Assembly: GCA_965285935.1 (NCBI GenBank)
Contig: OZ260665.1
Coordinates: forward strand, 34,906,001 to 34,970,000
Direction of reading: 5' to 3'
Origin: Ophelia neglecta
Taxonomy: Eukaryota
DNA length: 64,000 nucleotides
Position 1 is the first letter of the stretch. The number at the start of each line of letters is the position of its first letter. The notes below the pieces were generated by a model. That model did not search any database. It was not told the DNA's origin and worked only from the letters and a program-made list of their open reading frames with translations. Positions 5,594-54,845 of this stretch are shown in pieces. Both the position numbers and the translations under genes were made by a program.

Positions 5594-5775
5594 CTGAGCG
5601 TAATGCCATCCCCGAGGTGTGTGGGGCGAGGGGTGGTGTGGATCTCTATTCCCGGGGGTGGCCCTAGGGGGGTCTGTGGCGTGTTTAACCCCGGGGCCAC
5701 CTTGGCAGACGAACAACAGCCGTCCATGATGGAATTGAACAGACTGAGCTTACGTGGCGCGATCTGAAAGGCCAT
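5594..5775 (-). CDS. Candidate alternative first coding exon A of an unidentified multi-exon gene (MAFQIAPRKLSLFNSIMDGCCSSAKVAPGLNTPQTPLGPPPGIEIHTTPRPTHLGDGITL+AG|, phase 2)
   Basis: ATG in strong context (gccataATGG). 182 nt open (60 codons + 2 nt) ending at a strong donor CAG|GTAAGA (GT at 5593-5592). Locally GC-rich, with a GC-rich putative 5'UTR running back to a TCTCGCGAGA motif at 6317. Confidence 0.55.
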
Positions 5776-6316
5776 TATGGCACCCAAAAGCGGTAGTTTG
5801 GCAAAAATGTTTTACGAGTAGTTGGCACAGATCAGGCGTCGCATGGCTGCCCCTTCCGACAGTCTCCCACCGATCTCAAGCCGACTCAGAAGCCTGCATC
5901 AGTCCAACTCTACAGGACTCAGGTTAACCCTTGTCCTTCCAAAGTCGACTTGGCACAATCGGACATTCCCCGGGTCAAGCTCAAAGCACCGCCATTGAGA
6001 GTTAAACAGCTTGACCCTTTACTGGTGGGTCGTTGGTGAAAAGTTCATACAACTTTATCTATTTCTTCCGTTTTAGATTTGAGCGAAACTTTGCTATATC
6101 CCACTCTAAATGTTCATCCAGTCCAACCAGTCGGCGGGATTCGTGTCTCGGGGGAGGAGCTGTCAGCGGCAATAAACTTCCAATGTGGGTCCAAATACTG
6201 GCGATGTTAATGGCTTGCGTTAAAGCCACAATTCTCCCAAACAAGCACCGCAGAAAATTACTTCTCCCGAGCAACAATTTACTAATCTTACTATGCTCGT
6301 AAAACTGCGTGACAGA

Positions 6317-6326
6317 TCTCGCGAGA
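6317..6326. promoter_or_regulatory. TCTCGCGAGA palindrome (CGCG/BANP-type promoter element)
   Basis: Exact 10-bp palindrome about 550 bp upstream of the exon A ATG. The motif is an established vertebrate CpG-island promoter element; function in this organism is inferred. Confidence 0.4.
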
Positions 6327-8393
6327 AACCGCTTTGCTTGTAAGCCTACTTTGGTTCAGGATACAGGCATTCCTCAATTCGACATATTGGCTTCTGTTCA
6401 TGCCATATGGCCTTTTTTCGATAATTCAGTATGTTGAACATTCTGATTTTCTATTCATCCATGGTCATGTTAAGGCATGAGGGGCTGTGTAAATTCCTTG
6501 CTTGTATTCATTTTGTTCCATTATCGGTAGAAGCTTCCGCTGCTAGTTTCATGCTAAAACGTCCTACAAATTGCCACACAAGGTCTTCCGGTTAAACAAA
6601 ATACTAACTTGTGTCATTTCGAGCTAGGAGAGAGAGCAGTAACTGTCAACCGCAAGGATGAAACTCTGCTTCTAGATCCAGCAATAATTGTCCTGCCAGA
6701 GCTGAAGACAGGTATCTCGTGGGCACGTTACACGAGCGTGCATGGCACGCCGCAGCTCATTGAGTTCCAATCACTTTCCAGGCGATCGTTCTGGTCTTTA
6801 ATGTAGATAACTACATTAACGAGTATAAAGGTTGGCACTGTATTAATTTCCTTTGTACTATGAATCGCAGTTATCGCATTCTTCTCTCTCTTCGAACTGA
6901 TCGGCACGAGATCCCCGCGGTCGATTTCTTCCAGGCTCATTCCAATTCTCCCGGCATTTTTATGCCGTGCAACCACACGCTCTCCGACTTTACAAACATT
7001 TTCCGTGATGTCTGTGAAGTGGTTTACCCTCTTTGTCACCAGAACGCCTGTGATACAAGGAATTCAAATGTGTTGTGGCACTTTCTCTTAACCAGGCACT
7101 ATTCTCTGCTAAAATTGTCCAATAGGTAAGACCAACCCAAAATGACAAAATTTAGCTAGGCACATGAATTCAGCTCCAAAACAGAGCTTACACGAATTTC
7201 CCATTAACAGCGGTATAGCAATATTAATTACATCTCAATGTTTCTGTGGCAGCCATTCATTGAAATGCAATTATCAATGCTTACGCAATCGCCAAGTTTT
7301 ACCAGTGTATTCTACTTTTTTCTCTCACAATTTCATTCTTTTTGTGTGGGTCGTATAAATAACTGCATACGTCTCGAAAGCATGTTATAGATGCTTTTGG
7401 AATCATTCAAAATTACAAGTCTAACTCTTGGCTTGTTATTTTCTGAGATTTAGTTGGCGACCAATTCCCATGGGGAACGTTGGACAACAGTTGAAATTGC
7501 TTGGCTCTATTTCAGTTATTCAACTAGAACTGAGATCAGATAAGGAAGATAAACGTAACGAAGAGTAAATATCCTTGGGATAAATGACCTCTAAACTATC
7601 AATTCCATTATTTCTATGCCGCTCGATACCTCGTCAGCAGATGTACATTTGGCCTTTAGATAATGTCACCCAGTCGGGCATTACAAGTGAGCACGTGGAC
7701 GGAAACAGAAGAAGTGCGACCTAGTTTTCTACCGTGTCTAGCTTCTGTATCATTCCATACAAGTCCTCATAGATTAGAACGCCGCGGAGCTTTCAATGTC
7801 AATGCTTATTCCGCCGAATTTACACAAAGTTGTCTTGAGGATAAATAAGCCCCATGCCGGCGCTGAAGCCCTCGCGGAGCAGACGGCAAACAAGTCGACT
7901 CGAGCTGAAAAGCAACAATTGTCATGAGATGTGCTTTGAAAGGCACCTTATTATCGACGCGCCCCAGCGAGTCCAAGTTTCATTCACACCATAGAGGCTG
8001 CCCGACCCCGCCTGTGTAGTGGAGGACACGGCTGGTGAGCAGACATAGAGCAGGCCGTGGGAACATGACTAAAAAACAACGCTTAGTCCTGTCTGCTTGT
8101 GTTACATGGATTATATTAAATGGCCACCGTGATCCACACAAGACCGAGTTCCGAAAGCAATGTGGACCCAATAAATAAGGACAAGGCACGACGTACGGCA
8201 AATCACGTCATCAGTTACAATTCCGCGTGTTATCGCGTGACTTTGTTGACGGTCAAGAGAGCAGTTTTATTTCGAAGGTCATATTGGGATCGGCGGGATA
8301 AAGATTTGACATGTTCACGCCAATTGACTATTCTTTGACCCATTTTAGCCTCTTTCAGTGGTGCCAACTAAAAGACTAATTTTTTTTATCAGG

Positions 8394-8430
8394 CACCCCA
8401 CCCCCCAATGAAATATTGGGGGGTGGGGTG
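8394..8430. repeat. Perfect 16-bp inverted repeat with 5-nt loop
   Basis: caccccaccccccaat (8394-8409), gaaat, then attggggggtggggtg (8415-8430). Confidence 0.9.
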
Positions 8431-8841
8431 GGGGGGGTAAGCCGCTATTGTTATGCTTTTCGATTGCAAAAAAAAATTCTTGTATTATTCTTCAAAACTC
8501 AACCTTTTCGGAAGCCCACCGATGTCGCTGAATAATTCGCTTAACTCATTTTTTTAATATTGTGCACGACTTTTAAAGAAATCACTGGCGATAGAACTTA
8601 TGATAATGAGCACGACACTGACAAATTTACTTAAGCCTAGGATTCACAGCCCAAATTTCCAATATACCTTAAGATGCTTTCACAAAATAAAAATAAAATG
8701 AGCGAGTCAGCCCCTATTTCGAGAGTTCGGTTTTAATAGCGCTTGTGTTAGGACCCCAAAATGAAGAGTGTTTTTTTTTTCAGGAGAAATTCGCCGACTA
8801 AAAACCCTGTTTGCTGCTTTACCATTGCTCTGGGCGTACGA

Positions 8842-13068: not shown

Positions 13069-13160
13069 CATCCTTTGAAATTTTCTCTCCAATGTTGTTC
13101 TTGGAAAACGACGATTTGTACGGCAGATTGACAGCATAACGTCTTATCGAAACATTGCAT
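13069..13160 (-). CDS. Weak candidate phase-2 first exon (MQCFDKTLCCQSAVQIVVFQEQHWRENFKG+TG|)
   Basis: acaacATG context. 92 nt open, preceded by about 280 nt of GC-richer sequence. The donor TG|GTGATT is weak. Confidence 0.15.
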
Positions 13161-21742: not shown

Positions 21743-21873
21743 CAAATTCGCTGCCAAGTGTTTTTGGTCGCTGGTCGAAGCAGACGTTTCTTGCACATCC
21801 ATGACCTCCTTTTTTTGCTCTCCTCCAGCTCTCTTTCCTCCTCTCCCACAGAGGAATCAACACGAACATACAT
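21743..21873 (-). CDS. Candidate phase-2 first exon (MYVRVDSSVGEEERELEESKKRRSWMCKKRLLRPATKNTWQRI+TG|)
   Basis: First ATG after an in-frame stop. 131 nt (43 codons + 2). Donor TG|GTGAGA. Peptide has an acidic stretch followed by KRRS. Confidence 0.25.
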
Positions 21874-29431: not shown

Positions 29432-29478
29432 ATGCCAGACTGAGGCAATCCGCCTAAGGTTCTATTGAACCTCGGCAT
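29432..29478 (-). CDS. Weak candidate phase-2 micro first exon (MPRFNRTLGGLPQSG+AT|)
   Basis: cacaacATG context, 47 nt, donor AT|GTAAGG. Short enough to be chance. Confidence 0.12.
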
Positions 29479-35032: not shown

Positions 35033-35125
35033 GGTTTATATTTATACGATATGTGTTCCCAATTTGAAAGGTCTATCTTAAAGGTTCTAAAATAGAAGGA
35101 AAATGTATATTTGGTTTATTCTTAC

Positions 35126-35217
35126 CATAGTAATGCGCACATTTCCAACCTGCCTCCATCCCTGTCTAGGAATACTTTAGGCAACTTATCTATGAAGTTT
35201 GGTTTGCCAGTAATCAT
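35126..35217 (-). CDS. Candidate phase-2 first exon (MITGKPNFIDKLPKVFLDRDGGRLEMCALL+TG|)
   Basis: 92 nt open from the first in-frame ATG to donor TG|GTAAGA. Lies immediately next to the X-box cluster. ATG context is mediocre (C at -3). Confidence 0.28.
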
Positions 35218-38200
35218 TTGCACTATTATTACAAAATCAGCTTGGCGATAGGGGAAACAGAAAACTATGTTTGTCGTAAAAGCCAATACGTAGCCATTAC
35301 CACTTCGTAACACATCTTTTTAAAAAGGTAGGCGCAACAGAAATATATTATCAGGAATTTGCTTTGAAAAATAAGGAAAACAGTTGGAGTATGTATGTGC
35401 CCAGCAGACAATTCAAAATCATTGAACAAGTTTAATACACTCAAACGATCCGAATGCATTATAAGTTGTGAACTGCAGACCTACAAATATCAGTTACCAG
35501 CCTCATGATTGAAAAAATGATATACGGAAAACCAATGAAATAAAGACATTACTTACACTGAAAAGTGGTAAACAGTTATCCATTATGTAATGACACAAAA
35601 CATTGAGTTGGTCAACATAGCCCAGAGATAATATATGCCCTAAAAGATACTCCCGTAGACAAGGCACTCTTATAAATGTCTCAGTTGAAATGGTACCATA
35701 TCATGGTCAAGGATGAGCAATATACAAAAGTAAGTAGACTGTCAAGACAAGCTGAATAGAACGACGAGTCAGAATTTTTTTTTTCTATGGTGTCTTATCG
35801 TCAACTAGCAGGAGCCTGTACCTCCAGCAGTAATATATTCATGCATTTTTAATGTATTGGATCGTTTCGAAAGACCATTAGTGATTTTAAACTATATCTA
35901 CCCATCTGCCTGCAGCTTTGATGGCACGTTCTCGTGCAACCAAGTGAGCTGTATGTTTTTTTACATGTCGTATGTGTGCTACTGATTAATATTGCATTGT
36001 ACCTGACTCGTTAATATTCTGTACTGTACCTATTTGCACGTGCTTCTACTAAACGCATAGGCCTACTTTTTTTCGATATTATAGGTAGCATCAATCCTAT
36101 ACTACATTCTCAATTTGTCATCCTATGCACATAACCTCCAATGAAATGGTTTTTTGAAATAAAAAACACGAAGCAATGTAAATTAAACCATAAATAAACT
36201 TTTAGAAAGCATAAATCATCCAGATACAGAAGTAGATACAAAATTCAAGGGATAAAAAGGAGAATACTTAGCTTCAACGAGAATTATTACCAAACACTCA
36301 TGCATGTGAATAAGCACAGCATGTGTAAAATTTGACTTGTAATCAAAGAAGCCATTAATAGCTACAAAAAATGGCACAAATAGATTACCAATTTTATTTT
36401 AATGGTAGGATGGTTGATGATGAAGTCTCACAGCAGGGAAATATTATTTGTTTTGCAAAAGTTGCCCCAACTCTGGCTAAGTCTGTCTTGAAAAACAGGA
36501 GCGGACATCCGGAAGACAAATAGATATCAGTAATCGAGTATTTTCCATTACAGCGGGCCGAATCCACCGGGAACCTTCAGCTGCTGGCCAACATACATTA
36601 ATTCCAAGTTCCCTACCTGTAAGTATGGTTTTTTAGTCGCACTTAGTGATTACACATTTAATATTGTTATCACTTGCAATAAGAAGTTGTCAACACTTGC
36701 CCATAATGCGAGTTAGAACACAAAAAAAGGAGCATAAAACAAAAGTCACAAGTCAACAAAGAATATAGGTAAAATATGAGGGGAAAGGGAGTGGATGCCC
36801 GACAGACAAAGCCAAATCATTGATCAAAAAATAGTCTATTAGTCGGTACGAAATCGTCAGGAACCTGCATCCGTAGACCCCCACTTGTCAATAAATCAAG
36901 CCCCATAAAGTCTTAGGCAGTTCTCCCGATTTCTCCAGTGTCTATGATGAGTCTATGATGGGCAAGCTCTCTCATAATTTAAAGACTAAGTACCTTTCAT
37001 TAAAAATTCAAGTTCAGAGTAAATGTCAATTGTCCCTGTATACTAAAGAGGAATATGCCTTTAAATCTCCTCGATAGTGCGATACAATGTTAACTATGTA
37101 AAATGAACCAGGTGCGCTTTTATTGTGACGGAATATGCGCAATTGCAACATACGTTTTATCATCATGAAGCAGATACAAATAGTCTTAGCCCTAGGATGC
37201 GTGGAATATGTCAGTCTAAGCTATTGAAGTCTTTTGCTACCAAGATGTTCTCTCTCCAAGCCTGATATAATCAGACAGAGTGCACATGAATGTAAAGTGG
37301 CCACAATTCTCGAGATAGGCGTATCCAATCCGTATGCTGGAGAAAAGAAATATTGTTATCAAGGAATGCAACGTTTACTATTGGAAAAGCGAAATAATCT
37401 CCTTCGCCATAAAGGTTGGATTGGATCTGGCTAGAAATATTCAGGTTAACTTATTGCAAACTTTTCTGACTATGACTCTAAAAAAATTGGAATGTGTCAG
37501 TACGTCTTGTTCCATAGTCTCAATCTGACAAAGATAGCAAAAGTCAATTTTTACAACACCCTTATAGCAACATTTACGTCGTGTTTATTATGGATTTCAT
37601 TAGTATTATCCCAGTTATCCTTAGCTTTTCTACGATATATTGCGTATTTATACCAGTCTATTTCGTTAGCCCAGTAGCACATAGCGTGGGGCCTATCACA
37701 AAGACCAGACGACCTGGCGAATCCTCTGCATTACACCCCAATTGCTGGTGATTGAAAAAGTATTGATTCCCACTGGACAAGACCTCGGTCTCAAATTGAA
37801 ATCTTGTAGGGTCATTTTCCGGTTACAGGTTTCCTCTTGCACATGGCTGGAGAACAACGCAAGATCGGCTCTGATCAAGATGGTCAATCACTGGGACGCT
37901 TTTGATAAGTGTTTGTAGTAAACCGATATATTGTTGGGAAAAAAATGTTGTTTCAACTGAACGCCATAGTTCTAGAATATGGCAATTGTGTAACTGTAAC
38001 AAATACAAAAAAAGCCTAAAAGTGGACAGAAATTACTAATGACTTACTTATCCTCGTATTAGATCATGAAAAGAAAACTAACCATGATCTTGGAATTATT
38101 TATTACAAAATAATTTCTTTGAGCCATACAAATATGCTCTGCGTCTTTAGACACTAGAAAGTCGAGTTCTGGAACTTTTCCCTCATCGATCTATTTGCCA

Positions 38201-40578
38201 AGACAAAAACTCGGTCAGTTAGTACAAAAGCTTGTTCGCGGACCAAAAAAGTCAGGAAATTTGCGACTAATACAAACACTGCACATTTAAAGCTCAAATA
38301 AGGGGCACAAGTACATGCAATTAGATTGCCTTTGTATTTTTGGCATTGTTGAATGTAAATAGGCCTGATTCCGTTCGGTTCCCGTCGATTAACAAATCCT
38401 CGTCTGTATGGAAAGGTGATTCTCCAATCCAAACAGTATTAACTCTGAATCTAGGTCGCATCATATCATCCGCCACATGGACCCTTCTATAGAATGCTGC
38501 CGGCAAGGCATTCATTGTTTAATCTCATGGCTAGCAAACCAAAATAATTCAAAGCACAAATAATGGCAGTTGTGGACAGCTAAATAACTGTTATCAAGGT
38601 GCATAATGGCACTTATGTTTCTCCTGTCATACTGTACACAGCAATGCCGGATCCAGAGCCGCCGAAAACAAGAGTCGACTGCCATGGTGAGGGCCTGGGA
38701 CGTGTTAAATCTAAAGGGGGTTGTGGGGGCGAACTCCAATGGGAGGGGACACGGATTCAACAGTATCGAAACCTGATTTTAGAAGCTTGTAATGAAAGGG
38801 ATATCTTGACTCATGCAACCCCCCCCCCCCCCTCCCTCTCACTCTAAAGCTGACAAAATAGAAGATCCCATTGTGGGTTTGCTTAACGCATTGGCGTACA
38901 CTTGTTAATAAAACAATCTATGAGAAATCCTGCAAAATCTGTACATTTTCTTCCAACAGGTCCGTGCCTAGTCAATTGATATCAATGTCATTCAATTTCA
39001 ACGTTTTCATACTTTGATTACCGGAAGTCCGTCCAATTTCATGGTCTGTTTGGACACTTCTACCGCGAGGCTTCCCAGGCGTGGTCCGAGCCATCGCTGG
39101 CACAAGGAATCGAAGGGGTGTACATCTTCAACAGCTTGATGTTAATTGGCGACATTCTGCTGAGATCAGGTAGATTTATCAGCCAGTTGTCAAGTGATGG
39201 CCCTTCTTCTGCCCGGAGCGAGGAAACTGCCGTGATGTCACGTGAGCAAAGACATGATAGAGGCAGCTGTCCAAAGTACGCTAATCATTGACTGGGGACA
39301 CAGATTTATACCCATCGTTAGTCTACATCAAATCATCCACTTTCATGGTTTTTTGGCCAAGAGTAGACATATAAAGAACCCGACGAGAAGAATTTCTAGT
39401 TTAGAAACAATAAAGGGGTAAAAAAGTATGCTTTTGTCCCAAAGCTTACCGTTTCAAATGTGTTGGTTTCTTTTTTTGGACTGCAAGTGGATCAATACAG
39501 GTTAAAACTAAAAAGTTGTTAATTATTCTATAATATATTTGCAGAAAATGGTGTTTGAAATAGAATAAGACAAATGGTTACTTAAGCCGAATATTTGTAT
39601 AACTGTGTTTTTTTGATTGAACTACATGCATACCTTCAATGTCCATACGTCCTAGCTGGAGATTGTGGAAACCTATATGATGTTGTACCTGTCAACCTTT
39701 TCTTGAGCCCATCTTTTCCTCGCGGTCTCACCACACAGGACGCATACCACTGATTATTTGGGGTTTAATATTCAACAACGGAAATGAAAACAAGTTTGAC
39801 GGATGCTTCAATCGTCAATTTGTTCGGCCAAATGAACATTTTGTTATGAATAACGATCCTCTTAAAACGCCATCGATGTGCAAAACGTTTGTTTCAACGC
39901 TCTGTCAATTGGGAACAAAGCAATTGAATTGCGTTGACTGCCCTGGTGGAGTTTCAGGGTCAACACTTAAATGTACATCATTTTACTCGACGTGTTGTGA
40001 TCTGCAGAGAATGCACGGCTTAATGGAACCAAAACGATGACATAAATAGGTGTTTCACCGCTTTTATGTTGTAAACTGAACAGTTACATCTTGGCAGCAC
40101 TCGACGCCATATTGGTAAACATCCTGTGTTCGGATAGGAGGTTTGTTCTATATGGACGCCTGACCAAATACTTCTGAATCATTAAAAACACTAGTCACCA
40201 GAGGCTAATGCTTCATAAATCGCGCAATTTTACGGCCCCGGTCATATTTGATCAAATTTGGGCAGTTCTCCCTCGAGAAACTGATTGAGGAAGCAGACGA
40301 CAAATGAATGGGCTCGTCCCATAGCTAAGAAGAATGGGAGGCAGCGGGAGTAGACTTGTCCTGCTCATGTTTCACCGGTTGCAATTATTAGGATACAAAT
40401 ATGGTGTTCTCTTGCAAGTAGGTCGAATAGGACAAGATAATAAGAAGTCTGTCTACTGAGCCCAGGAGACATATTGGATTTCTTGTACTGGTCCCCAAAG
40501 TAAACTGAATGGGCATAAAACAGAAACTTATTTAAGAATATGACACGGACAATTAATAAAAGAAATAGTAAATGTCGT

Positions 40579-40760
40579 CTGGGGGTGTTTCATAAAAGTC
40601 GTTTAAGTGGTTATCCAGCTGGAATTTGAGCTAAATATATTTACCCGGCTGTAAACGGTTTCGTAAAGCCTAAAGTATTTAAGCTCAAACTCGTAACCTT
40701 TTGCTTAAATCCTAGCCAGCCAGTTAGCCACCTCGGCATTTCTCTGGCTAGGATTTAAGC
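40579..40760. mobile_element. Truncated palindromic non-autonomous DNA transposon (PIF/Harbinger-like terminus)
   Basis: Begins ctgggggtgtttcataaaag. Contains a perfect 17-bp inverted repeat, gcttaaatcctagccag (40703-40719) / ctggctaggatttaagc (40744-40760). The right terminus was not found, and the family is assigned by resemblance only. Confidence 0.5.
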
Positions 40761-43700
40761 CAGTACCTATCTATAAGACTTTTATAATGGACGAACAAAA
40801 TTTACGCACCTTGACGACTGGGAAAGTGTAGTTTATGAGGAAGCTTTGAAACTTTTTGTGAAAACTCTTTACACAGCTCGCCAGAGCAATATAATATAGT
40901 GTGGGTTACAAAAGGACCCACCAGCGATAGTCTGGATAAAAAAATTCCTATTTTACTATTTCCTGGCATATATTTGTTACATGTATGACTGTTTAATTGA
41001 TTATTAATATTGTATGTACACGCTCTCATTTAGTTGAGGAAACTTATAAAACTAAACTACATGTATGTATAGGTTTCCTTTTTCATCAAAATATATTTCA
41101 AAAATTTCACTTTTTGCCAGCAATTTCTATAACATCATAGACAGGAAAGCTTAACACTACTGTGCCAAATAAAAGACGTCTAGTCAAGTTACCAGAATAA
41201 TTAACGAAACAATTGATTGGAGGTGTAAAGCGGATGCTTGCAGAAAAGTGGATGCCAAAAAAACTACTATATTTGGACGATGTGTTGCATCGACGATTTT
41301 CTTTGAAGATGAATAGCTGATTATTTTTTCTTCGATCAATCTTTTCATGGTTGTTGTAGCAAATACCCTATCTTTTATAATCAACAAAGCACGGTATCGG
41401 TGACATTCCGGCTTCTATGGTCTCTAAGAAAACACGCGTCACATGTGTTGTCACCCGTAATGCTTCGCATTGGTGTATGTCAAACAATTTGCTCACTTCC
41501 AGTTCCGGTGGGATGGTGCGTGACTGTCGCCTGCTCCTAGAAACTTATCAACTGGAAACAAGTTCCATATCAGAAGGGAAGTAATCCCTTACCTGACTCG
41601 TTCTCGACTTTTCTCACGAGACGCTAAAAAACTTCGATCGTCTCAGCCATTGACGGCAAGAGTAATGTGCTTGGCTGCTTTAAATTGATTGAAGGTACAA
41701 GAATAATCAAACAGCCACCCTAAAGGAAGGACGTTCTCTCCAAATCAGTTACCCCGAATATAGGGAGATAATCATTTGGATTCTGCGACTGGTATCATTA
41801 AATGCAATGTTTTTCCTTTTTTTAAACGGTATCCAGCCCTTGTTAAGGTATTTTTTTCGACACCATTATTATAGTGTCCACTTGGTCTTAACTGTCCTTT
41901 AAGACACCCCATATGAATATATCATTTTCGTATCGAACTTTATATATTTGTAATGAAGACTGCAATGGTGTTAAACAACTGAAAGGTAGCGCCAAGGACA
42001 AAAAAATAAAACCGATCGCCTGCCTGGATCAGTGCAAGCTAACTTGGTAATGCTAGTATAAATGTGTAGCCAGAACAATCATGAAAGCTAAAGGATGTTG
42101 AGCTCTCTTGGCACCTTGAAGTCTTGGTGTCGGAAATATTCTTAGGGTTAAGTCCAAAACCTAAGATCCAATCCATCAAAATTCATGAACAATGCAGAAG
42201 TAAGATTGATTGTCTTTTTCATACAGCACATGCGAATATGATTCGTAATCGAGGTGCATGACAAGCACGATAGGGTTAGGATAGCACTGCCTTGATGGCC
42301 GAATTTCCTGGCTAAATAAAAATGTTGCTGCATTTTGGCTTCGTTTCTGAGGGCTAGGGATAAAAATAACCACCGGGAATTTATTGTGGCAATTTAGGGA
42401 GAGAAGGGGGCACGGGGTGACGAGACCCGTCTGGAATTGAGGGCAAATAGCCCATGTTGTCGTCAACTCGGGATGACTGTCCCATCATTCCTGGCTATCA
42501 TTAGAAATGGTAGGCCCGCACACTGAGAAGGCAGCCGATAAAACATGGCAGGGAACTAACAAAGTAGTCCCAGGCATATTAAATACTTGAAATAAATGGC
42601 AGTTTTTGATAAATAGGCAAATTTCATAAAATGGTTTATGTCAGTGTGGTTGTTAAACCGAGATAGCTCTATAAATCTATTCAATCAATCTTGCTCGTTC
42701 ACTGGTGGCATTAAATTGTCCAGTTTCCCAGCAGGCGTCAGTAGCGAGTGACATCGTCCGGCATTTGCTTTTCGAGGCCAATTGAACATTGCATAATTTA
42801 AGGAAAAAACTTGGATTAATGGGCTATCGTAGGGATAAAGTCGTCACATATCCTAAGTAATGTGATTTCCAGGGAGATTCAACCAGCTCAAGATACACAT
42901 ATAATTGAAATAATTATGTCGTTGTTTCCTCTTCCTATAGGACAACTATTAGAACCACTTTTATTTATTGCAAGACTTGACGAATCATGGCCCTCGTTGT
43001 CAAACCAGAACCAATGAGCACGGTAACGGCCGGTACAGTATCTTTCACGACGAACCTCAAAAAATTATAAAAAGTTATCGATGCTTTTCTCTTGCTAGAA
43101 AAGGCAGGCATTGAAATCTTTTTCATGTGAAGGAAATTGTTAGTGTTGCATGTGTCCACTTTCCGAACGCGATGAGTTACAGGAAGATGCACAACATCAG
43201 ATTTCAACTTGGGAACGGAACTTCATCTTGACAACAACGTCTTTTTCGTTTTAGTTACCTATTCTGTTTTGAATTGGAAATACAGTGAAGAATGGACTTT
43301 GTACTCCTTTACACAATATCACAAGAAGATAAAACAAGTCTATCGAAAGGCACATATGAATAATTGTACACCATATCTGGGTTAAGTCTGGCGATGTAAT
43401 TATGCTAAAATATTGAGGCTTGCCATGAAAGACGGTATCTGTCGTTACCGTGTTTAGTGTTGCGGCTGTGAATTGCTTTCCTTAAAATTACACGTGACTT
43501 AATATTAGGCCTAGTAGATATGTCTTTATCTGTACTGGCAACAGCTATAGAAAGAACGTGGAAAATAACTTTGTGTAAGAGGACTACATGCATGTTTTCT
43601 TTCCATACTTGACTAAACTGAACCGTACAGACCAAAGTGATTCGAGGGCTAGATCGTAGGCCTACAGAACAAATTCTCAAATTAATGCTTAAATTAGGAA

Positions 43701-44289
43701 TTGGATCTCAAAATATTTATCCATCCACATGACCATGATTTATTGCCCTGGCCCCATATTTCGACCCCACTGCATAAAATGTCAGTGTAAGGCCTGATAT
43801 AATGGGCTATATCCTGAACGAAATTTGTCTATTTGGTATTACAGGATTGCTAATCTGTTTAATCATAATAATGCAGTCGTGTACATTTTGTATTCGTTCA
43901 GCGGAAGCGTGTACCCAGGCATCAAGTAAGACTCCGAAGGGACTACGACAATAAATCCATAGTGAAATTGACATTCTATCAGCATAGGAGCATATCTCTA
44001 ATCAATGGCTTCGTAAGATCATGTTACTAATAATTCATGTCTTGAAAACGATAGGCTACACTCAACCACTTGCTGACTAACGACTTTTCGACTGGATTGA
44101 TACCCATGCTATGAAACAAGTTCAGCCTCAAGTTCCTTCCGCTTTGAAAACCATTCTTTTCTATTGTAGCCCATAGTATATATAATTATTTAGGTAGAAA
44201 GTTCATTTATGCAATTATGTTAGCATTAGATCATATTTCTCCTCTTGCAATCGTAAGATGACATATTTTGATAGTTTTTAATAACTTAC

Positions 44290-44477
44290 GGCATAGAATA
44301 GTATCCTCCGTCGGTTGGCGCAAAATTGTCATCATTTCGAGCATGTTGATTAGCAATTAGTTCCATTTCAGCGATACAATGATCTTCTACGATAGGCTCC
44401 AAACCACTGTATCCACTCGTGTTAAATCCGGCTTTATTGCCCACGTGGGGCTTCCGTAACGTTTTGTTTCTCTTCAT
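44290..44477 (-). CDS. Candidate alternative first coding exon B (MKRNKTLRKPHVGNKAGFNTSGYSGLEPIVEDHCIAEMELIANQHARNDDNFAPTDGGYYSM+CC|, phase 2)
   Basis: gtcataATG (A at -3). 188 nt (62 codons + 2) ending at consensus donor GTAAGT (44289). GC/CpG-rich upstream region to about 45.2 kb, then promoter motifs at 45.2-45.3 kb. Confidence 0.55.
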
Positions 44478-45191
44478 TATGACATTGGTATGTTGGCGAC
44501 AAAAACTCGACAAGATGAATGATTTTGGAGGGCGGCTCTCTCTCTGTCTCTGTTGAGTTATGCGCAACTCTGCCGGGCAGATGGCAGTTAACAAAACAAG
44601 GCGCTCAATACACCTCGGCAACGCCAAGCCGCCGGGACAAGGGCAGACGACATGCTGTTGCCGCCTCTTTAACTACTGTCTTTTCTTGTAAGTCAACTTT
44701 CAATCACACAAATACATGTTAACTTGATTTGAAAGTACCAAAGCACGTATCTTGCAGGAGAATTGATAACCGAGACACGTCAGGAGTTGCGCCCCGTATC
44801 ACTTGGGTGTGAAATTGGTGCTGAGCGATCAGCGACCGTCGGACATTGCTGTCAGTGAGCGTTCCGTCTTGCTGCAAGCCTGTGGCTGGAGGCAGGTAAT
44901 CGTATCGGGGCGCCACGCCGGCGGGCCCCTCCACGGATTAGCCCCGTCTCGATACCGACTTAACAACCTGCTGCTATCACAGACAGCAAATTACAGGCTT
45001 TGGTTGTACTTTGTGACGAGCCTAGAGAAGCTCGTTGAAATTGGACCAAAAGTCTTCGACTCAATGAATCGGCAACGCTCGCAGCCACCTGCTTACAACT
45101 GCAATTTCGCTCCTTACCGGATTGTAAAAATTGCTTATTTAGGAAGTTTTGTAGGCAAAGAAAATACGATATTCTTTGCCTGCACATGGCA

Positions 45192-45328
45192 ATTGTCTAG
45201 CAACCTATGAGAGAAGAATTGACCTTTTGGTTGAGCCCTAGTTGACTAGGTTGACAACTCTCGATGAGATTTTAATTATGGCAAAATTGATAATAAATCT
45301 GACTGCGTATGACATCACGGCGGAAGTG
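45192..45328. promoter_or_regulatory. Putative promoter module upstream of exon B
   Basis: X-box-like ATTGTCTAGCAAC (45192-45204), CRE-like TGACATCA (45310-45317) and ETS CGGAAGTG (45321-45328). Confidence 0.35.
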
Positions 45329-46269
45329 GAAGCTTAATAAAAGAGGTCTGCTGGGAAACCGACGGGTCGTTTGTTTTACCAGGACTTAGGGAGGCTGTTG
45401 AGAAGAACTAAATCAAAGCCTGTACCAGCACCTGAAACCATACAAACCAACAAAAAGAATGCTAACTCTAATTTTCAAAGGATTAATTATAAGTAAAAAA
45501 AGTCCAATTGGCTGTGCATCTAAAGTAGCGATTTGTGGATATATTGGACAAAAACGCCCAAGTACTCTGCTACATCTTTGACGGAATGCGCAAGTAAATT
45601 AACATGTTTTAAAGATAGCCAAAAATCTGCCTTAACCATTCAATTTTAAGAATATATTGCCTGGGACCTTGTCATTTGTATGACAGGCTATAGGCCTCTA
45701 TAAATAGTAAATGTAGCTATATGTTTACGCTTAAACATACGTGTGAATGTATTAGTTATTGAAGAGAGGAAATGTCAAAATATATAGGCCTATAATAGGC
45801 TTTTACGGGTTTAAATATAATTATATAATGAGAATGGTATAGGCCTTGCAAAGAGTTGACAGTGCAGGAAATAGAGACTGGGTGTGGGGGGGGGGGGGGG
45901 GGAGAGGGGCGCGGGTTCCTGCACCTATGACTAAACAATACAATGTCGTTCATAACCATCTGCCATGTCAAAAACAAGCCAAACAAATCTTATTTCTATT
46001 ATTCTAGAGAAGACAATATACTGTGTATGATAAAATACCAGATGTGAAAACTGTCCAGGGACTAACAAACACGTCTACGAGGTTGATTTTCAATAACTTA
46101 AATGACAAATGACTCTCCATTAAATTTGAAATTCTTTGTGACTAATTTCATGGTAAAGCATGAAACACATTTTAACCAAAGGCAGTCACCGGCGAAATTC
46201 TCATCTAACCGTGAGAGGAAAAAAAACACCATGTAATTAAACAAATAATTAATGTCACGTGTTACTCAC

Positions 46270-46361
46270 CTTCGTCTGTGAGGGGTCATAACTGGGTCAG
46301 CGGCCAAGTTAAGGCCAACCGATAAAAGCTTGACCACCGCGCTGTCCTCTATGTCACTCAT
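46270..46361 (-). CDS. Candidate alternative first coding exon C (MSDIEDSAVVKLLSVGLNLAADPVMTPHRR+AG|, phase 2)
   Basis: tttaaaATG context, with an alternative in-frame ATG at 46382. 92 nt ending at an optimal donor AAG|GTGAGT (46269). Confidence 0.45.
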
Positions 46362-47228
46362 TTTAAAGATTTCTCTTATCATCCATATATAGGTCAATCC
46401 ATTTAAAACTATATCGAGCAGGTTGTGTGTTTTTAGTAATATCTGAGAAGCCAATTGGCTCAGTTTCTAATAGCTATATAATAAGCCATGGTTAACTGGT
46501 ACATGCTTGTAGTTGTCTTTATAGTGTTGATAGATTAAAAAACAATATATAATCCATTTGCCCCACCTATTGGTTCGAGTCAAACAACGGCGCTTAGATG
46601 ACTTCCAACAGATCCGATATGATATTAACACAAGCAATGTTGGATTCCATTACCCAATGACGATGTTGTATGACAGTCAAATATAAATCTCAAGTAATCG
46701 TTTGTATCAGCATCCCTCATCATTGGCAGCACCTCACTCCCAAGTTTATTAATCTCTGCTAGTTGATTTCTGATACACCCAAAAAAGTGCTATAAAAACT
46801 CCCATTTAGAAAAACTTGTCCTTCTGCTGTCACCGGAAAGTCTCGGTAAAGTGTCGTGGCCTACTCAACGTTCGGCAGGCTCTTATGAAAGTGAATTAAG
46901 ACAATTTAGGTGAGTGACAGCTGGCTTTTTATGAGGGGCACACAAAAGCGTGCGACCGCCGAAATCTAGTGCTGAATTTGACTTGCGGGATAATTCTAAT
47001 GGGAAAATCAGAATACGGAATCGATTACGGCCCTATGTCGTCTCTCGGCGCGTTTTGTGGTGGCGCTCCCTTCCTGGGTATAAAGTGCCCATATCGGGTT
47101 ACCTTTGACGGGGTCGACAACCAGTGATATCATTTCATTTGACGGCTCCCTCCTCTGAGAGTCACGGGATCCTGCAGGTCATCGCGAAAGGCTGATGAAG
47201 GGCATCGATCTCGACAAATCTCGTGGTG

Positions 47229-47242
47229 TGACCTCGTGACCC
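47229..47242 (-). promoter_or_regulatory. Nuclear-receptor DR2 element GGGTCA-cg-AGGTCA
   Basis: Exact RGKTCA-N2-RGKTCA match inside a CpG-rich non-coding patch (about 46.9-47.45 kb). Confidence 0.3.
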
Positions 47243-48353
47243 CGAGACCGTCATCCGGGTTCTGCATGTCACCAGCGATACGCTCGCGTTATCATTAACA
47301 CGCTAATCATCAGCCCCCCTAGGAAACTAGAACGGCAGACGAAATCACCACACAAGGAGCGTAATCAGTGTACAAATAGCAGGTAGAGTACCCGAGAAAC
47401 CCATGGAAATAACCGCCATGTCCTCGATGGTGCTAACTTCAGGTTGAGTGGCATAATGATTGGTAACGCCGAGAAAAATCAACAGGTTAACAGCCGTCAT
47501 CCAGTTATAGGTGGACAAGCAAGTGTGGCAATAAAGTAATCACTCCTGTATTACATAAACGTAGGCGAAGCTAAGAGTCGCTCGATAAGATGTCTTTGGT
47601 GTAAGTATCCTGTGGAACTCTGAAATATCCCTTTTTATCAAAAGCAAACCACCAATCTTTAAAGTAAAATTTACTCCGAGATAACCCGAGGAATTCCAGC
47701 TAGAAAAATCCGGTTTCGTGTTTTGAAATTTCAGGAAGCGTTTAACTTTTTTTTGTAGGAAATATTGAATAACATTACCGCTCCTCAGTCAGAGAATCAC
47801 AATGATATCAAAAATGATTTCCTGTTATTGGTATCCGTTCAAAACTTTCAATGTGCCAGTACAATTGTGATTGAAGTTTTGTGTATGGGTCTTTACCCTC
47901 CTCTGTTGCAATCATCACTTAGGCGGAAGCCACAGTTCGTTAGCCACGTGCGAGCAGGCTTCGTCAGGATGGCAATGATAGGCAAATTAAAGCAATGCCT
48001 TGGTAAACATGCATGCAAGTAATGGCGGGCGAGGCGCTTGTGGATCAGACAACAATTAGCCGGAGACAGATGTCAGAATAAACTCTCCCTCTCCGCCTGG
48101 TACAGGCCACCTACCACCGAGCACGACGTCTGGCGTCTGCCAAGAATCCAAATGTCCGAATTCACATCCTTATAAGATATAATCAGCAATCAGGCCTCTT
48201 GGCCCAAATTCTTTTCCCAATACTGTGCCAAGCGCTTGGAATGTCCGTCCATTTTCTAGAAAGTCCTATAGTGTTCTGGATAGTTTCTCGGACAAATGAT
48301 AATAATTTTCCCTGCAAATGCAATGAGAATTTGCTCCAGAAAATTGAACTTAC

Positions 48354-48441
48354 AGCGGAATTTCTCCGTCGGATTTACTCCCCCGATAAAATATCTGTCT
48401 TTCTCAATATCTATTAATTGTAGTGCTTCTGCTTTTTCCAT
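48354..48441 (-). CDS. Candidate first exon in phase 1 (MEKAEALQLIDIEKDRYFIGGVNPTEKFR+T|)
   Basis: Strong context atcATGG, 88 nt, donor GTAAGT (48353). Its phase differs from the other candidates. Confidence 0.22.
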
Positions 48442-49372
48442 GATGTAGAAGAATTTTCACCCTGGGTCTGGTTCCTTTTTAGGACTTCAGACAAACTGTC
48501 GCTCGTTGCCTCTGCGACACTTGTTCCAGCGGTTGTCTCTGACCATCACCCACCGGCTTCAAGAAACTGTTGTAACAGTCAGCTGGGTGCTTATTCATTC
48601 CGCTGGGTGAGCCCAGATAAGTTGTCACCTCGTGCTACGGTAAACTTGATGTTGTTGAGATATGTCAATGGCAGTTTAGCCGGGTGTCTGAGGGCCTGAT
48701 AAGGCAAACCCATACTGATGACGTATAAATCCATGGTGGTGCGCTAAAAGAGGTCCTGCTATATGATAATATTGTCGTAGAAAGTCAGCGCCTCCCAGGC
48801 GCTGTACATTGCTTTTTGTTGTCACAAGTGGGTGCTGTAAGCTCATTTCCAAATAGGGAACAGATTTTACGACACCATACATCATTTGACAGTTAATTTA
48901 TCATCGAAGATACAACGCCCCTACTGGATTGGAGGGAGTGAACCTCTTAAAGCTATAAAGCCTCTTAACCATGATGCTAGTTGACAAAAAAGGAGGGCAA
49001 ATAATGGTAAACATCGCGGCCTCGAGTGAGATGTGATTAACAAAGTCCAGTCTAAATGTTGCATGCGAAGAATTTGTCAAGAAAATCTGCCTGACAACTT
49101 CGCCCAATTTCATGCGCCATCGCCTTCGAGAATTATATGGCGACTTTCTGAAGTGATGGTTTCAGCAGAATTGCAGTTTCGATCACAATGAGATCGGAAC
49201 AAATGGGCGGTCTGAACTACTTGTGACTTGGCTTCGTGAAATTTGAACTTAAAGACCTGCCATGTTGCTTATCAAACACGATCAACAAGGTTCTCTCTGT
49301 AAGAACACCCACTCTGTTTTTGCTTCTTTAATAGATAACTTGCAATGGAACGCTGCGCATGTTTATCTACCA

Positions 49373-50012
49373 ACTTCCGGTGGCGTCATGGAAGTCAGAG
49401 AATTACTGCGCTGTAAATGAAGTATCATTTTACGATGTTGAATTTCCAGAAAGGTAAGTATTCGAAAGTGACTCTTCCTACCCCAAAGAGACGGCTTCAG
49501 ATCTGGATGATGTCAAATTCCCCTCCCTGGTCGATAGACAACACATTCAGCCGATTGCCTTCTTTCTAATATCTAACACAATTGCTATTCTATGGGCCAC
49601 TTGACATGTTGATTGAATGACCTCCGCTGACCTTTCTCATCTAGCCCGTTTTGGGCGTGTTAAGCTCCAAATGAAGTTGCCACGTGACAACAGGTGTCGT
49701 GAGAGTGGAGAGAAATAATTCTTATAAATTATCCACATCCGGTAACAAGAACTGATCGGCAAGGTTAAACAAGCACGCCCAGCATGTGTGCTAGGTCTAC
49801 CCATAACAGTACTCATCGAAGGAAAAACAGCGATGGAAAAAAAACTAAAATTCGCCTCTATAGAGACGGATTAGCGCTACAAAATTGGCTTATTTCAGAC
49901 CATTAAATCAGGAGGTGTTTACAGTCAAACATTGATGGTAAGTGTTTGCCTGGCAGCGGCCATCGGCCAAACGCTGGGGCGGCTGCAGGAACACGAGGAG
50001 GGAGGGGCGGGG
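49373..50012. promoter_or_regulatory. Promoter-like motif group
   Basis: ETS ACTTCCGG (49373-49380) abutting CRE-like TGGCGTCA (49381-49388), E-box CACGTG (49681) and GC box GGGGCGGGG (50004-50012). Confidence 0.3.
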
Positions 50013-50552
50013 GTAGTTGGCGTGCAGAGTTAGAGAATCTTTATTACCCTATCAGTTTGCTCCCCTTTAAAACACTAAGAGGCATGGGAAAGCACTAACA
50101 CACGGCAAGACCTGCCATCCCCCCCCCCCCAAAAAAAAAAACACAACTCACGTGCAAGTATACCACACGCTGCTCACGTCCGGACGAAGGACTGGCTGTC
50201 GGCTGCTACCCTACCCGGTCTAATGGGACTAATGAACCACGACTCAACAACTAATTCATGTCTTATACCAGAATTTCCCGCATCGCGTCTATTATAGACC
50301 TATACTAGATCGCAATTTAAATGTAAAGGCTTGGACACTGAAAGCATTCAATTTGAAAACATTGGACTCCGGAAGTCCCACACACTGGGATTGACCGGTA
50401 CACCTTGTCACAAGGTGTGCAGCTCTTGACCTTCGCATACCGGCGAGTAGGGCTATAGGCCTTCGCCAGCATGTGCGTAATGTTGGGCCTTTATAGGCCT
50501 TCGCTTACCTGTACGATTTACTGGGCCTTAACTTCCCCTATATGAAACTATA

Positions 50553-50850
50553 GGCTTTCGCAAACCTGTAAGAAGAAATAGGCTTTCGCATAACTGTATC
50601 CGAAGAGTATGGCCTGCGCATATCTGTATTCATAAAGCAAGGCTTGCGCATATCTGCATCCGTCGAGCAAGTCTTGTGCATATCTGTATCCGTATAGCAA
50701 GGTTAGGGCATAACTGTATCCATAGAGCAAGGCCTGAGTATATCTGTGTCCGTAGAGCTAGGCCTGAGTATATCTGTGCCGTAGACCAAGGCCTGCAGAT
50801 ATCTGTATTCGAAGCGCAAGGCCTGCGCATACTTGTTGGTAGAGCTATAT
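50553..50850. repeat. 30-bp minisatellite, about 10 diverged units (consensus near ggcctgcgcatatctgtatccgtagagcaa)
   Basis: Units start at about 50553, 50581, 50611, 50641, 50671, 50701, 50731, 50761, 50790 and 50820. More degenerate copies extend from about 50430 to about 50900. Confidence 0.9.
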
Positions 50851-51092
50851 GTCTTAATTCGCATGCCCGTGTGAAGTACCAAGCCTTCGGCTATCTGCAC
50901 GTGGATGATTCCATTTACAAACCCTTATACAAAACTAGTCATTTGCATACTTGCCGATTAATGAAATATGTCATTTTACTCAGGAGTTAAAATATCATTC
51001 AGTTTTTCTTTGAAAACCATGTTTTAAGTCAAGGCCTTACACAACTTTAATTGTGTGCAATGCATGCCTCCACACACAAGGACTGTAGCCTC

Positions 51093-51464
51093 CCCGGGGG
51101 GGGTACTCCCATTATCCGGCATACTGGGTATGTGCGGCCGAGAAGGGTCGTTTTTCCTCAAAACTTCCCTAAACCAAGGGTACCTTTTTGTTGATTTCTT
51201 CCCTAATAAAGGGTATGGTTTCTAGAAAAAAATTCATCCTGTCGGGCATGATTCTGAATTGCCTAGGGCAGTGAATAACCTGTATTCCATTCCACGAGGT
51301 TACATGTATGTCATAACAAAGTGCCAAGTTTGAAGTCAAAATGTCCCTAAATCAAGGGTAGGTTTGAAGTCATAATGTCCCTAATTCAAGGGTAGGGTTT
51401 GCCAGGTACCAGCCGCACACCCCCACCCAAAAATAATGGGAGTACCCCCCCCCCCCCCCCCGGG
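51093..51464. mobile_element. Intact 372-bp MITE (non-autonomous DNA transposon) with 8-bp TSD
   Basis: TIRs CCCGGG(G)nTACTCCCATTAT ... ATAATGGGAGTA(C)nCCCGGG, with an extra tgtgcggc/gccgcaca match. Perfect TSD gtagcctc at 51085-51092 and 51465-51472. Four internal ccctaa-n-aagggt motifs (51167, 51201, 51345, 51379). Confidence 0.92.
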
Positions 51465-54400
51465 GTAGCCTCCTTCCCCTGCCTAGGCGATTTGCTCCTT
51501 CCCAAGGAGATAAAACCATATTGCCCAAGGCGCTTTTAAAACATTTCTTAACGAGAAAAGAAAACAATAAAGAAAATCGGAAATTGTTCTGAAGTTTGGA
51601 AGACAATGAACCAAATCTGCTCGAAGTGCCATTGACTCACATCAGTGGGCAAGCTACTAGGAAATTTGGATGTTTGGGTTTGTATTTGTGTAGAGGTAAG
51701 CTTAAGCCAAATGTTACTGTCTAGTTTTACTCGGCATAGGCCCACTGAATAGTTCGCAGAAACCTATATTGAAAAACTGTCAAAAGTATGCAATTGCAAT
51801 CACAAAAATATGAAGAAGATGCATCGCATTTTGATGCATCCCATTCCGGGTTTATTTTTTTTTATGGAAATATTCGCGCCATATGTAATCTTCATGTGCT
51901 GATAGACTCAATCACCGGAGGCCGGCAGGGCCTGTTAGTCTCTGGACAAATGAAACAGACAGATTGCATGTTCACATCTGCACATTTCTACCTGATTAAA
52001 GGTGGTTGATGTTTTATAGATCGGCCCATCCATTGTAGCCTGTCTAGCCGTGACCCCTCATTACCTGCCCGGTGACCTCGGATCTTAGTCTACTCAATCC
52101 GTAGACTGTAAGGTGGAACACGTAATGGATCTGCTGATCTATTAATAAACAGCGTGTTAACGGACACAAGTATCTGCCTATCACAGTCATCTGCTGGCTC
52201 TGACGCGATAAATCTATCACGTGACTTAACGAATATTATCATTCATTAAATATAAGGGTCATAATTGGAACTTTTTAAATTATGTCAATATGTTATAAAA
52301 GTCTTCCTTTATTTGTCCTGTTTAATAAGCAATAACTTTGGACCACCCTTAAATGATACACAGCTCTATTTTATTTCACTTACTGCCACTCTGCCTAGTC
52401 TACCTTGAGTACCCTCTCCTCGGCCGAGTGAGATGAATCCTCAGTAATTTGTTTACAGGGACACCACGTTTTATATTCAACCTTTCAAGCTTCATCCTTG
52501 TGGCTGATATGACTTTTTTAATGGTTATCTACATAGCGTTGACAACAATATAAACCTCCTGACAGCAATCTGCACGCTCTGCCCCGACAATAAAACAATG
52601 ATGATAGCATATTTGCACATACAAAACTTAAGCCCCTTTTGCCTATAGATATATATGTATATGCAACTTATGTCTGTACGTCTGTTTTGCCTTTTGGCCT
52701 AAATCTATGACGCAAACTGCATCATTAGCATAAATAGACCTATTTGACATTTAGTTCAAAGACACTATTTAGAATCGTCTGCATGACATTGACAGATCAG
52801 TCCTTGGATGCTGATAATCTGTATGCATATCAGCGCAAATGTTTGCTCACCCCAACCCTTTGTTGTACTATACCTCTATTTTTGATTGAAACTAATAACA
52901 GACCCATCATTGCAACGAGGTCAATACACGGAAGTTACATAAACACGTGATATGAACAGAAAACAGAGAATAATAAAAAGAAGCTATGCAAGTGAATATT
53001 ATCTACAGTTTCCGTTGGCTTAAATTAAGTAACTGACCCTCCTTTTTTCATAGCGTTCTGTATTAAAGAGCCCCAACTGATAAAAGAAATGTTACACATT
53101 TCGTATTTCAACCCGGCTATGTCGAGAAAAATGTTCTAAGTGAGCAATCTGCGGAGCTATATATTTATCGAGGGTGATAACTTATTAACATAACATACCC
53201 TGAAGCATATTCCACAAGGACATATAACATTCAGACTATCATCAAGCAAGTGTAACTTTACAAGGTGGGCAAAAACGCTGAGAAACAGAAAGGAGGAATG
53301 AAGCATCAGACGATGTTCGATCTAAGATACCTGAAAAGTTCGGCCTTGTTGAGTCGACAGAAACAAAGGAACGGAAACAGGAAGGACGTGATAGTTCGCC
53401 TTTTTTCCCGAGGATCAGCTGTCTGTAGTCAAACACAATTTACCCAGCAAATGCCACGATGGACGACCACCCGGCGTTTGTATTTTTAATACGAGAAGGC
53501 TTGATTTCTTTCTTTTTTAATAAGTCAAGGTGGCTTTTAAGGTTTTCGGTGACTTGCGGTAATAGAACAGCCACAGGAAGTACTATAAATGATGTTATAG
53601 GGGGCACTAAAGCTCGGGGTCACTGGGTTCACGCTGCCGACTCGGTAACCCGACAGTCTCTCAGAAACCAAAGTTATAGTCATATTATCTTATAACTCTC
53701 GGCTAGTGATAGCCCAAGTCGTCAAAAGATTGATTTTTCCCCTAATTTCAGATTGCATTACCGGTTGGAAATGGCAGGTTCGCTGTCAGGAAGCCAGCTA
53801 CCTCCAGCAGCATCAGCCTATAGTCCCTACACAAGGCCTAGCAGACGTCTGAGACAAGTACAGTGTATGAACCATATGGAACTAGTCATAATGTACACCT
53901 GTGTTGATATGGGGTCATTAACGAAAGTCAAGAAAATACGGAAAAAAATATAATAGAAATTATGGTACTTTAAATAAATATAAAAAGTTATCTGAATTAC
54001 CCAAGAACCCAAACTAAATGAGTAATCCAGAAAAATGAGCCCGCCTAACTTTTTAGTTTTCACGTGTTAAACGAGAACTCTCTAATTACATAAAGCGAAA
54101 TAAGCGTGGATTTTCCCATTCCTGAAAAACTCATTTTGTTCATTGCTTTTTCTGTGTTACCTTTGAATATACCTGTTCATCAGTCTTTACGTGGTAAAAA
54201 GGTCACACACAAAATATTTCCGGTTTTGCAGGAAAACTATGCCAATGTCAGAGATGCGTTTTTGAAATTCCATGTGCTTTAAATGTTCAGTTTAATCGAC
54301 TTATAAAACATCTCATGATTGAGGTGCGAGGCTTCCAACGATTTAACCATCCCAATCAGTTCACAATGCACTATAGGCCTACATATGCCTATGCATAATG

Positions 54401-54750
54401 CGAAATATTCATCTTAACATCTATAGCCATGGAACTTAAAAGATATGCCGCAGGTATAAGTGTAAATAGTATATTTAATTGCAGGCGCAATAATTCTTTT
54501 ACTCTCGAAAGAAACAAATTGGAAAAATGGGACGAGAGGTAGTTAATTTTAATTCACAACTGTTTTAAAGAGTTGCACGCACGCGCCTTCTAATGTATCG
54601 AGGGTGTGGATTAAACACGTATTCGCACTATTAATTCTTTTTTTTTTTACTGTAGCAAAAAAGTCACATCGTACTAAAGAATAAAAAATTCTACCAGTGG
54701 AAAATGAATGAAAATGAATATTATTAACCAAGAAAGTGTATAGCACTTAC

Positions 54751-54845
54751 GTGATTGTAAATGTTGGTCCGTGGTCTAACATTTGGTAATCCCATGATAT
54801 GTACTTAATCCCTTGGGGTTCTACAATGTCCGGAACATCAGGCAT
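54751..54845 (-). CDS. Candidate alternative first coding exon D (MPDVPDIVEPQGIKYISWDYQMLDHGPTFTI+AC|, phase 2)
   Basis: gaaatcATG (A at -3). 95 nt (31 codons + 2) ending at consensus donor GTAAGT (54750). Found by scanning donors, not from the ORF track. Confidence 0.5.

What the first reader, a model, noticed from the sequence alone, without database searches (positions are those of the whole stretch)
5594..54845. Array of phase-matched alternative first exons: one gene with 4-8 interchangeable N-termini over 50 kb
Seen: unrelated short minus-strand ORFs start at a good ATG and run to a GT donor in phase 2. The strong cases are 5775-5594 (CAG|GTAAGA), 44477-44290 (GTAAGT), 46361-46270 (AAG|GTGAGT) and 54845-54751 (GTAAGT). 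The weaker cases are 35217-35126, 21873-21743, 13160-13069 and 29478-29432. I found no convincing internal coding exon between them, and several have promoter-type motifs upstream. Inference: each is a separately promoted variable exon spliced to one common exon left of the window. Known genes with this design include cyclic-nucleotide phosphodiesterases (PDE4/dunce, PDE1) and plectin, but the identity cannot be read here. Caveat: GTAA/GTGA donors create a stop in the phase-2 frame, so candidates taken from ORF ends are phase 2 by construction. Exon D and the 21.8, 13.1 and 29.4 kb candidates did not come from the ORF track. Prediction: if the TG| exons are real, the shared exon cannot begin with A.
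Basis: partly seen in the sequence, partly recalled or inferred. Interest (0 to 1): 0.75.

Follow-up and report, generated by a model that had tools for sequence, protein, structure and literature searches.

The report
Probable alternative start exons, gene unidentified
An animal gene whose body lies outside this stretch likely has about four (not eight) separate start exons, each giving the same protein a different front end; this is an ordinary design, and the splicing is still untested.

Summary
All eight ATG-to-GT, phase-2 candidates are at the stated coordinates. Starting from donors, which avoids the ORF-end bias, minus-strand phase 2 has 7 candidates against about 1.4 expected; corrected for the 27 settings tried, P is about 0.06. 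These candidates also show an exon-to-intron GC step (P=0.005), and strand skew suggests minus-strand transcription across the window. The four strong exons pass best, 5775-5594 most clearly. The weak ones mostly fail. One allele appears to lack most of 35217-35126; 21873 is open in all frames; 13160 has a poor donor; 29478 has no GC step. Three look-alikes that I found carry frameshifting or apparently neutral variants, so chance candidates are common. An equally good phase-1 candidate (48441-48354) breaks the 'all phase 2' pattern. Promoter motifs are at background. No RNA data, whole genome or homolog was available, so the shared exon and the gene's identity are unproven. The design is known (PDE4/dunce, plectin, NOS1). 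The scan noted a similar array before on other DNA (Owenia, e1-7275784).

The parts
5594..5775 (-). Exon A, likely first coding exon (60 codons + AG, phase 2); my estimate of being real about 0.85
   Evidence: CAG|GTAAGA, A at -3; largest exon-to-intron GC step of 168 GT[AG]AG donors; GC3 0.70; 1 variant shown in 182 nt (T48A) against 22 in the 725 nt upstream and 12 plus an insertion in the adjacent intron
46270..46361 (-). Exon C, likely alternative first exon (30 codons + AG, phase 2; an in-frame ATG also at 46382); about 0.7
   Evidence: AAG|GTGAGT, AAAATG; GC step 4th of 168; the one variant shown is synonymous (46281, Pro)
44290..44477 (-). Exon B, probable alternative first exon (62 codons + CC, phase 2); about 0.6
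   Evidence: GCC|GTAAGT; second-highest protein-like composition score; GC step in the top 7%; crossed without gaps by contigs of X1 and X2
54751..54845 (-). Exon D, probable alternative first exon (31 codons + AC, phase 2); about 0.6
   Evidence: CAC|GTAAGT, AATCATG; GC step in the top 10%; no variant data shown (tables cut)
21743..21873 (-). Candidate F, uncertain (about 0.3)
   Evidence: TTG|GTGAGA; open with an ATG in all three phases, so its phase is not informative
35126..35217 (-). Candidate E, probably not an exon (about 0.1)
   Evidence: C at -3; a contig in all 3 runs joins 35134 to 35535, skipping the ATG and 83 of 92 nt, at about the same depth as the intact allele in X3; what lies between is not known
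13069..13160 (-). Candidate G, probably chance (under 0.1)
   Evidence: non-consensus GTGATT donor, negative composition score, small GC step
29432..29478 (-). Candidate H, probably chance (about 0.1)
   Evidence: 47 nt only, no GC step, 6 ATGs in the 150 nt upstream
48354..48441 (-).
   Evidence: CATCATGG start, GCT|GTAAGT, third-highest composition score, but no GC step

Best explanation
The window is likely the long 5' intron region of one minus-strand animal gene, with probably three to five separate first exons (best: 5775-5594, 46361-46270, 44477-44290, 54845-54751) that would each splice to one shared phase-2 exon left of the window. Shown: each has an ATG, an open frame and a consensus donor in phase 2, and the peptides are unrelated to each other. 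Inferred: each exon has its own promoter; the cell picks one, and splicing skips the downstream first exons because they lack good acceptors. The product would be one protein body with different 30-62-residue N-termini that likely set location or regulation. Exon A has a Cys-Cys pair that could be palmitoylated and exon B starts with a basic stretch (read by eye, untested). The gene cannot be named; a signalling enzyme of the PDE type is only one possibility. The four weak candidates are mostly chance.
For: Donor-anchored excess in minus phase 2 only: 7 against 1.1-1.4. GC step: 9 minus phase-2 candidates average 0.12, against 0.03 for the 28 other ATG-donor candidates, Mann-Whitney P=0.005. 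Minus-strand T>A skew 0.021, P=0.002, and 43 of 64 1-kb blocks have positive summed skew, as expected for a transcribed intron (general knowledge). No Pfam domain in 150 of 955 ORFs. Exon A is poor in variants, with an invariant donor beside a very variable intron; the exon C variant is synonymous. Candidates with no GC step (6401, 3630) are the ones that carry neutral or frameshifting variants.
Against: Family-wise P is only about 0.06. The GC-step test was chosen after the fact, and GC-rich DNA also favours long ORFs. Four of the 9 minus phase-2 candidates look neutral or broken (36508, 35217, 6401, 3630), and two of them (36508, 35217) do have a GC step near 0.1, about the same as B and D. 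Exon A's variant deficit is P=0.064, or 0.37 if two unlisted X1 differences lie in it, and its one variant changes the amino acid. Promoter motifs are at background. An equally good phase-1 candidate sits among them.
Confidence: 0.57

Rival explanations
1. Only exon A (perhaps with C) is real: an ordinary gene with one or two first coding exons, long upstream regulatory or UTR-intron DNA, and chance ATG-GT pairs elsewhere.
For: A stands far ahead on GC step and donor strength. Lax settings show no excess, and family-wise P is 0.06. Chance look-alikes are shown to exist here.
Against: B, C and D all have GT[AG]AGT donors, A at -3, a positive composition score and a top-10% GC step. After the neutral candidates are removed, about four remain above expectation.
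Confidence: 0.23
2. Several exons are real but do not share one acceptor. Some are internal or cassette exons (B and C stay open 127 and 65 codons upstream of their donors), or they join different downstream exons, as a phase-1 exon at 48441 would have to, perhaps through the 46-nt element at 1742-1697.
For: Phase-1 candidate 48441-48354; donor CAG|GTAAGA at 54973 just upstream of D; 1742-1697 has the best-scoring acceptor among the minus-strand exon-like pairs listed and is open phase 1 in, phase 2 out. Strand skew continues to 64000, so transcription may start further right.
Against: No acceptor upstream of A, B, C or D passed the scan. 48441 has no GC step.
Confidence: 0.13
3. Nothing here is coding: the window is intron or intergenic DNA and all candidates are chance.
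For: No homolog for A, B, C or F in any protein search (the tools call these blanks weak evidence). 85-90 GT[AG]AG donors per strand are expected by chance.
Against: Exon A ranks first of 168 donors for GC step, has a near-perfect donor and is poor in variants; class-level tests.
Confidence: 0.07

Closest known systems
PDE4 / Drosophila dunce (bioRxiv 10.64898/2025.11.29.691281, passages seen; PMC13095499, passages seen; Aplysia PDE4, PMC4580752, one passage seen)
   Same: Several promoters and short, unrelated N-termini on a common body; in these papers the N-termini set subcellular location. That PDE4 long-form first exons end in phase 2 is recalled, not checked.
   Different: No PDE sequence lies in the window and no candidate matches a PDE. 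It works like this design; membership is untested.
Human multiple-variable-first-exon genes: plectin, NOS1, glucocorticoid receptor (listed in PMC1885805, passage seen)
   Same: A row of first exons upstream of constant exons.
   Different: No sequence link; the constant exons are not visible here.
Clustered protocadherin / UGT1 / GCNT2 variable-exon arrays (PMC1885805, passages seen)
   Same: Same reading frame at each donor, and splicing to constant exons (inferred here).
   Different: Those exons are large, similar paralogs with a shared promoter motif. Here they are short and unrelated, with no shared upstream sequence.
Owenia fusiformis alternative N-terminal exon array (scan note e1-7275784, unchecked AI note)
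   Same: Row of unrelated start exons in one large intron of an invertebrate gene; other notes suggest that this genome is an annelid too (not verified).
   Different: There the N-termini were said to match molluscs; here no homolog was found, and sequence look-ups returned 0 windows. Orthology is not shown.

Membership tests
Alternative-promoter genes with unrelated coding first exons (PDE4/plectin design) | Two or more ATG-containing exons ending in the same phase on one strand | tested here: met
   (sequence level; statistical support borderline)
Alternative-promoter genes with unrelated coding first exons (PDE4/plectin design) | No constant coding exon between them | tested here: inconclusive
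   0 Pfam hits in 150 of 955 ORFs; the exon-like 1742-1697 lies downstream of all and is stopped in the needed frame
Alternative-promoter genes with unrelated coding first exons (PDE4/plectin design) | Each exon has its own promoter or TSS | tested here: inconclusive
   motif counts at background; no CAGE or RNA data
Alternative-promoter genes with unrelated coding first exons (PDE4/plectin design) | All splice to one shared acceptor | not testable with these tools
   no genome held; no RNA holder listed
Cyclic-nucleotide phosphodiesterases (PDE1/PDE4) | PDEase catalytic domain and UCR or calmodulin-binding exons downstream | not testable with these tools
   the body lies outside the window; no hit from the candidate peptides
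Protocadherin/UGT1-type paralogous variable-exon clusters | Variable exons are paralogous and of similar length | tested here: not met
   36 peptide pairs: 3 nominal p<0.05, all with weak candidate G and tiny scores; none among A-D; no repeat family of 30 nt or more covers them
Protocadherin/UGT1-type paralogous variable-exon clusters | Shared promoter motif before each exon | tested here: not met
   upstream 400-nt pairs: 3 of 36 at p<0.05, about chance

The most novel reading that the evidence does not exclude
An unannotated invertebrate gene carries six or more unrelated, separately promoted N-terminal exons over more than 60 kb, including a phase-1 member that uses its own adaptor exon (1742-1697). 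With the Owenia array noted elsewhere in the scan, this would point to a hidden, widespread layer of N-terminal targeting isoforms in lophotrochozoans.
Probability: 0.1. Interest if true: 0.5.

Novelty: new member of a known kind. Interest (0 to 1): 0.25.

Why it matters
If real, it adds several unannotated isoforms to one gene and shows N-terminal targeting variants in a little-studied animal. Such exons are easily missed by gene callers. The design itself is well known (PDE4/dunce, plectin, NOS1), so interest stays modest until the gene is named. The session also shows that ATG-to-GT look-alikes are common in 64 kb and that allele data can weed them out.

Tried and rejected
Whole genome: none held. 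RNA: no RNA holder listed; only 3 DNA contig runs of one sample, which is no evidence on expression. Protein homologs, longer proteins only: exon A 0 of 8 candidates, B 0 of 4, C with 10 upstream codons 0 of 4. phmmer of A over 1.84 billion representatives gave 1 hit, a repetitive 1077-aa protein matched by composition, rejected. Atlas: top scores under 0.9 for A and F. PDB: nothing below E 0.18 for A, B, C, D, F and 48441. Pfam: no significant hit in 14 peptides (one E=0.21 row) or in 150 of 955 ORFs. Rfam: 0. Metagenome contigs: 0 of 499 pattern matches confirmed for A; C was not scanned. Scan look-ups by place and sequence: 0. My own extra phase-2 candidates were rejected: 3630-3512 (1-nt deletion allele at 3615), 6401-6292 (3 of 3 variants change the amino acid) and 36508-36432 (10-nt deletion allele at 36495). 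Reading B or C as internal exons behind 48441 was checked by eye: one acceptor gives a stop and the other lacks a pyrimidine tract. A recalled resemblance of the end of exon A to vertebrate PDE1 N-termini could not be tested and is only a lead. Paper searches (listings only, except the four papers cited) gave no annelid case. Supplements were not read.

Full report
Setting. The window is 64 kb of about 40% GC animal DNA with no long ORF, no Rfam match and no Pfam match in the 150 most protein-like of 955 ORFs of 35 aa or more. No whole genome is held. Earlier scan notes on this genome suggest an annelid; I did not verify that. The minus strand has T>A skew of 0.021 (64 1-kb blocks, P=0.002; summed skew positive in 43 of 64). 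This is the usual sign of a transcribed intron's sense strand (general knowledge). The skew continues right of exon D (9 blocks, P=0.013), so the transcription unit may extend past 64000.

Observation. All 8 candidates are as described: ATG, open frame, phase 2, GT. With a full GT[AG]AG[TA] donor, at least 90 nt and a purine at -3, the minus strand gives 2/0/7 for phases 0/1/2 and the plus strand 2/1/2. The null means are 1.06 (Markov-5; 0 of 200 reach 7) and 1.43 (local shuffles). With laxer settings the excess disappears (11 against 10.9). Corrected for 27 settings, 3 phases and 2 strands, 6% of 300 shuffles do as well. The seven are 54845, 46361, 44477, 21873, 6401, 5775 and 3630.

Second feature. 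Real exons are usually richer in GC than the intron behind them (general knowledge). Among 168 donors, A ranks 1st, C 4th, B in the top 7% and D in the top 10%. E and F are near the top 15%; G's step is small, and H, 6401, 3630 and 48441 show none. The 9 minus phase-2 candidates of at least 75 nt average 0.12, against 0.03 for the 28 others (P=0.005; the phase-1 reading of F's donor was left out of the control). This test was picked after the fact and is partly tied to ORF length. Promoter motifs are not enriched.

Allele data. Three DNA runs of one sample hold the locus as contigs. Over 3450-6500 there are 71 substitution sites, of which 40 were shown. Exon A has one shown site (5634, T48A), against 22 in the 725 nt upstream. 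A second allele contig over 5393-5606 has 12 differences and a 2-nt insertion; I infer that these lie in the intron, because the overlapping contigs of X2 and X3 are unchanged from 5577 to 5606. Expected in exon A: 4.4; P(1 or fewer)=0.064, or 0.37 if two unlisted X1 differences fall there. The 3630 candidate has a 1-nt deletion allele, and the 6401 candidate has 3 of 3 amino-acid-changing variants. Over 35060-55059, 40 of 265 substitutions, 12 of 47 indels and 15 of 37 joints were shown. Exon C has one synonymous variant. B is crossed without gaps in X1 and X2, but that region is low in variation, so this says little. The 36508 look-alike has a 10-nt deletion allele. A contig in all three runs joins 35134 to 35535, which removes or replaces E's ATG and 83 of its 92 nt; the tool marks what lies between as not known, and the shorter side is 58 nt. 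D had no rows shown; F, G and H were not covered.

Result per candidate (my estimates): A 0.85, C 0.7, B 0.6, D 0.6, F 0.3 (open with an ATG in all three phases), E 0.1, H 0.1, G under 0.1. A phase-1 candidate at 48441-48354 has an equally good start, donor and composition but no GC step. If real, it needs a different acceptor. An exon-like element at 1742-1697 has a strong acceptor and is stopped in the frame that a phase-2 first exon would need, so it is not the shared exon.

Mechanism. Most likely several promoters lie along a long 5' region, and each produces a first exon with its own ATG, spliced to one phase-2 acceptor left of the window. The result would be one protein body with unrelated 30-62-residue N-termini. 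Shown: the exon anatomy and the lack of similarity between exons or their upstream DNA. Inferred: promoters, splicing, the shared exon and the function of the N-termini. By analogy with PDE4, where unique N-termini set location (PMC13095499; PMC4580752; dunce preprint; passages only), a targeting role is likely. Exon A's Cys-Cys pair and exon B's basic start fit this, read by eye. The junction codon is open for A-D whatever base starts the shared exon; only the weak TG| exons forbid A.

Identity. Every search was blank or at chance level. That is weak evidence, because short isoform-specific N-termini diverge fast and may be hidden inside sequence clusters. The gene cannot be named.

Comparison and verdict. 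It works like the alternative-promoter genes PDE4/dunce, plectin and NOS1 (PMC1885805, passages). It is not a protocadherin/UGT1-type paralogous array. The scan noted a similar array in Owenia (e1-7275784, unchecked); no sequence link was found. Two paper searches aimed at invertebrate or annelid cases (listings only) showed no description of such a locus in an annelid. Verdict: probably a real but smaller array of about four exons, of an ordinary design, with the key step untested. Interest 0.25.

Noticed in passing
window 48441-48354 (-): Phase-1 ATG-to-GTAAGT candidate with a very good start context and protein-like composition; it does not fit a phase-2 acceptor.
   Followed up: partly
window 1742-1697 (-): 46-nt exon-like element with a strong acceptor and ATG|GTACGT; open as phase 1 in / phase 2 out, or as a coding exon starting with ATG right after the acceptor.
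   Followed up: partly
window 54994-54973 (-): Strong donor CAG|GTAAGA 128 nt upstream of exon D's ATG, with a 22-nt phase-1 ATG frame; possibly an alternative or non-coding first exon.
   Followed up: no
window 35135-35534: One allele lacks or replaces this 400-nt stretch in all three runs.
   Followed up: partly
window 51085-51464: 380-nt stretch skipped by a contig in all three runs; it overlaps a very high-depth repeat bin, so it may be a recent mobile-element insertion.
   Followed up: no
window 50580-50831: 30-nt tandem repeat, 8.4 copies, giving a 152-codon plus-strand ORF with no Pfam match.
   Followed up: partly
window 36394-37727, 38395-39061, 40396-41062, 45732-46398: High contig depth marks interspersed repeats or poly-G/C tracts.
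   Followed up: no
window 5393-5606: Two very different alleles (12 differences and a 2-nt insertion) directly behind exon A's unchanged donor.
   Followed up: partly
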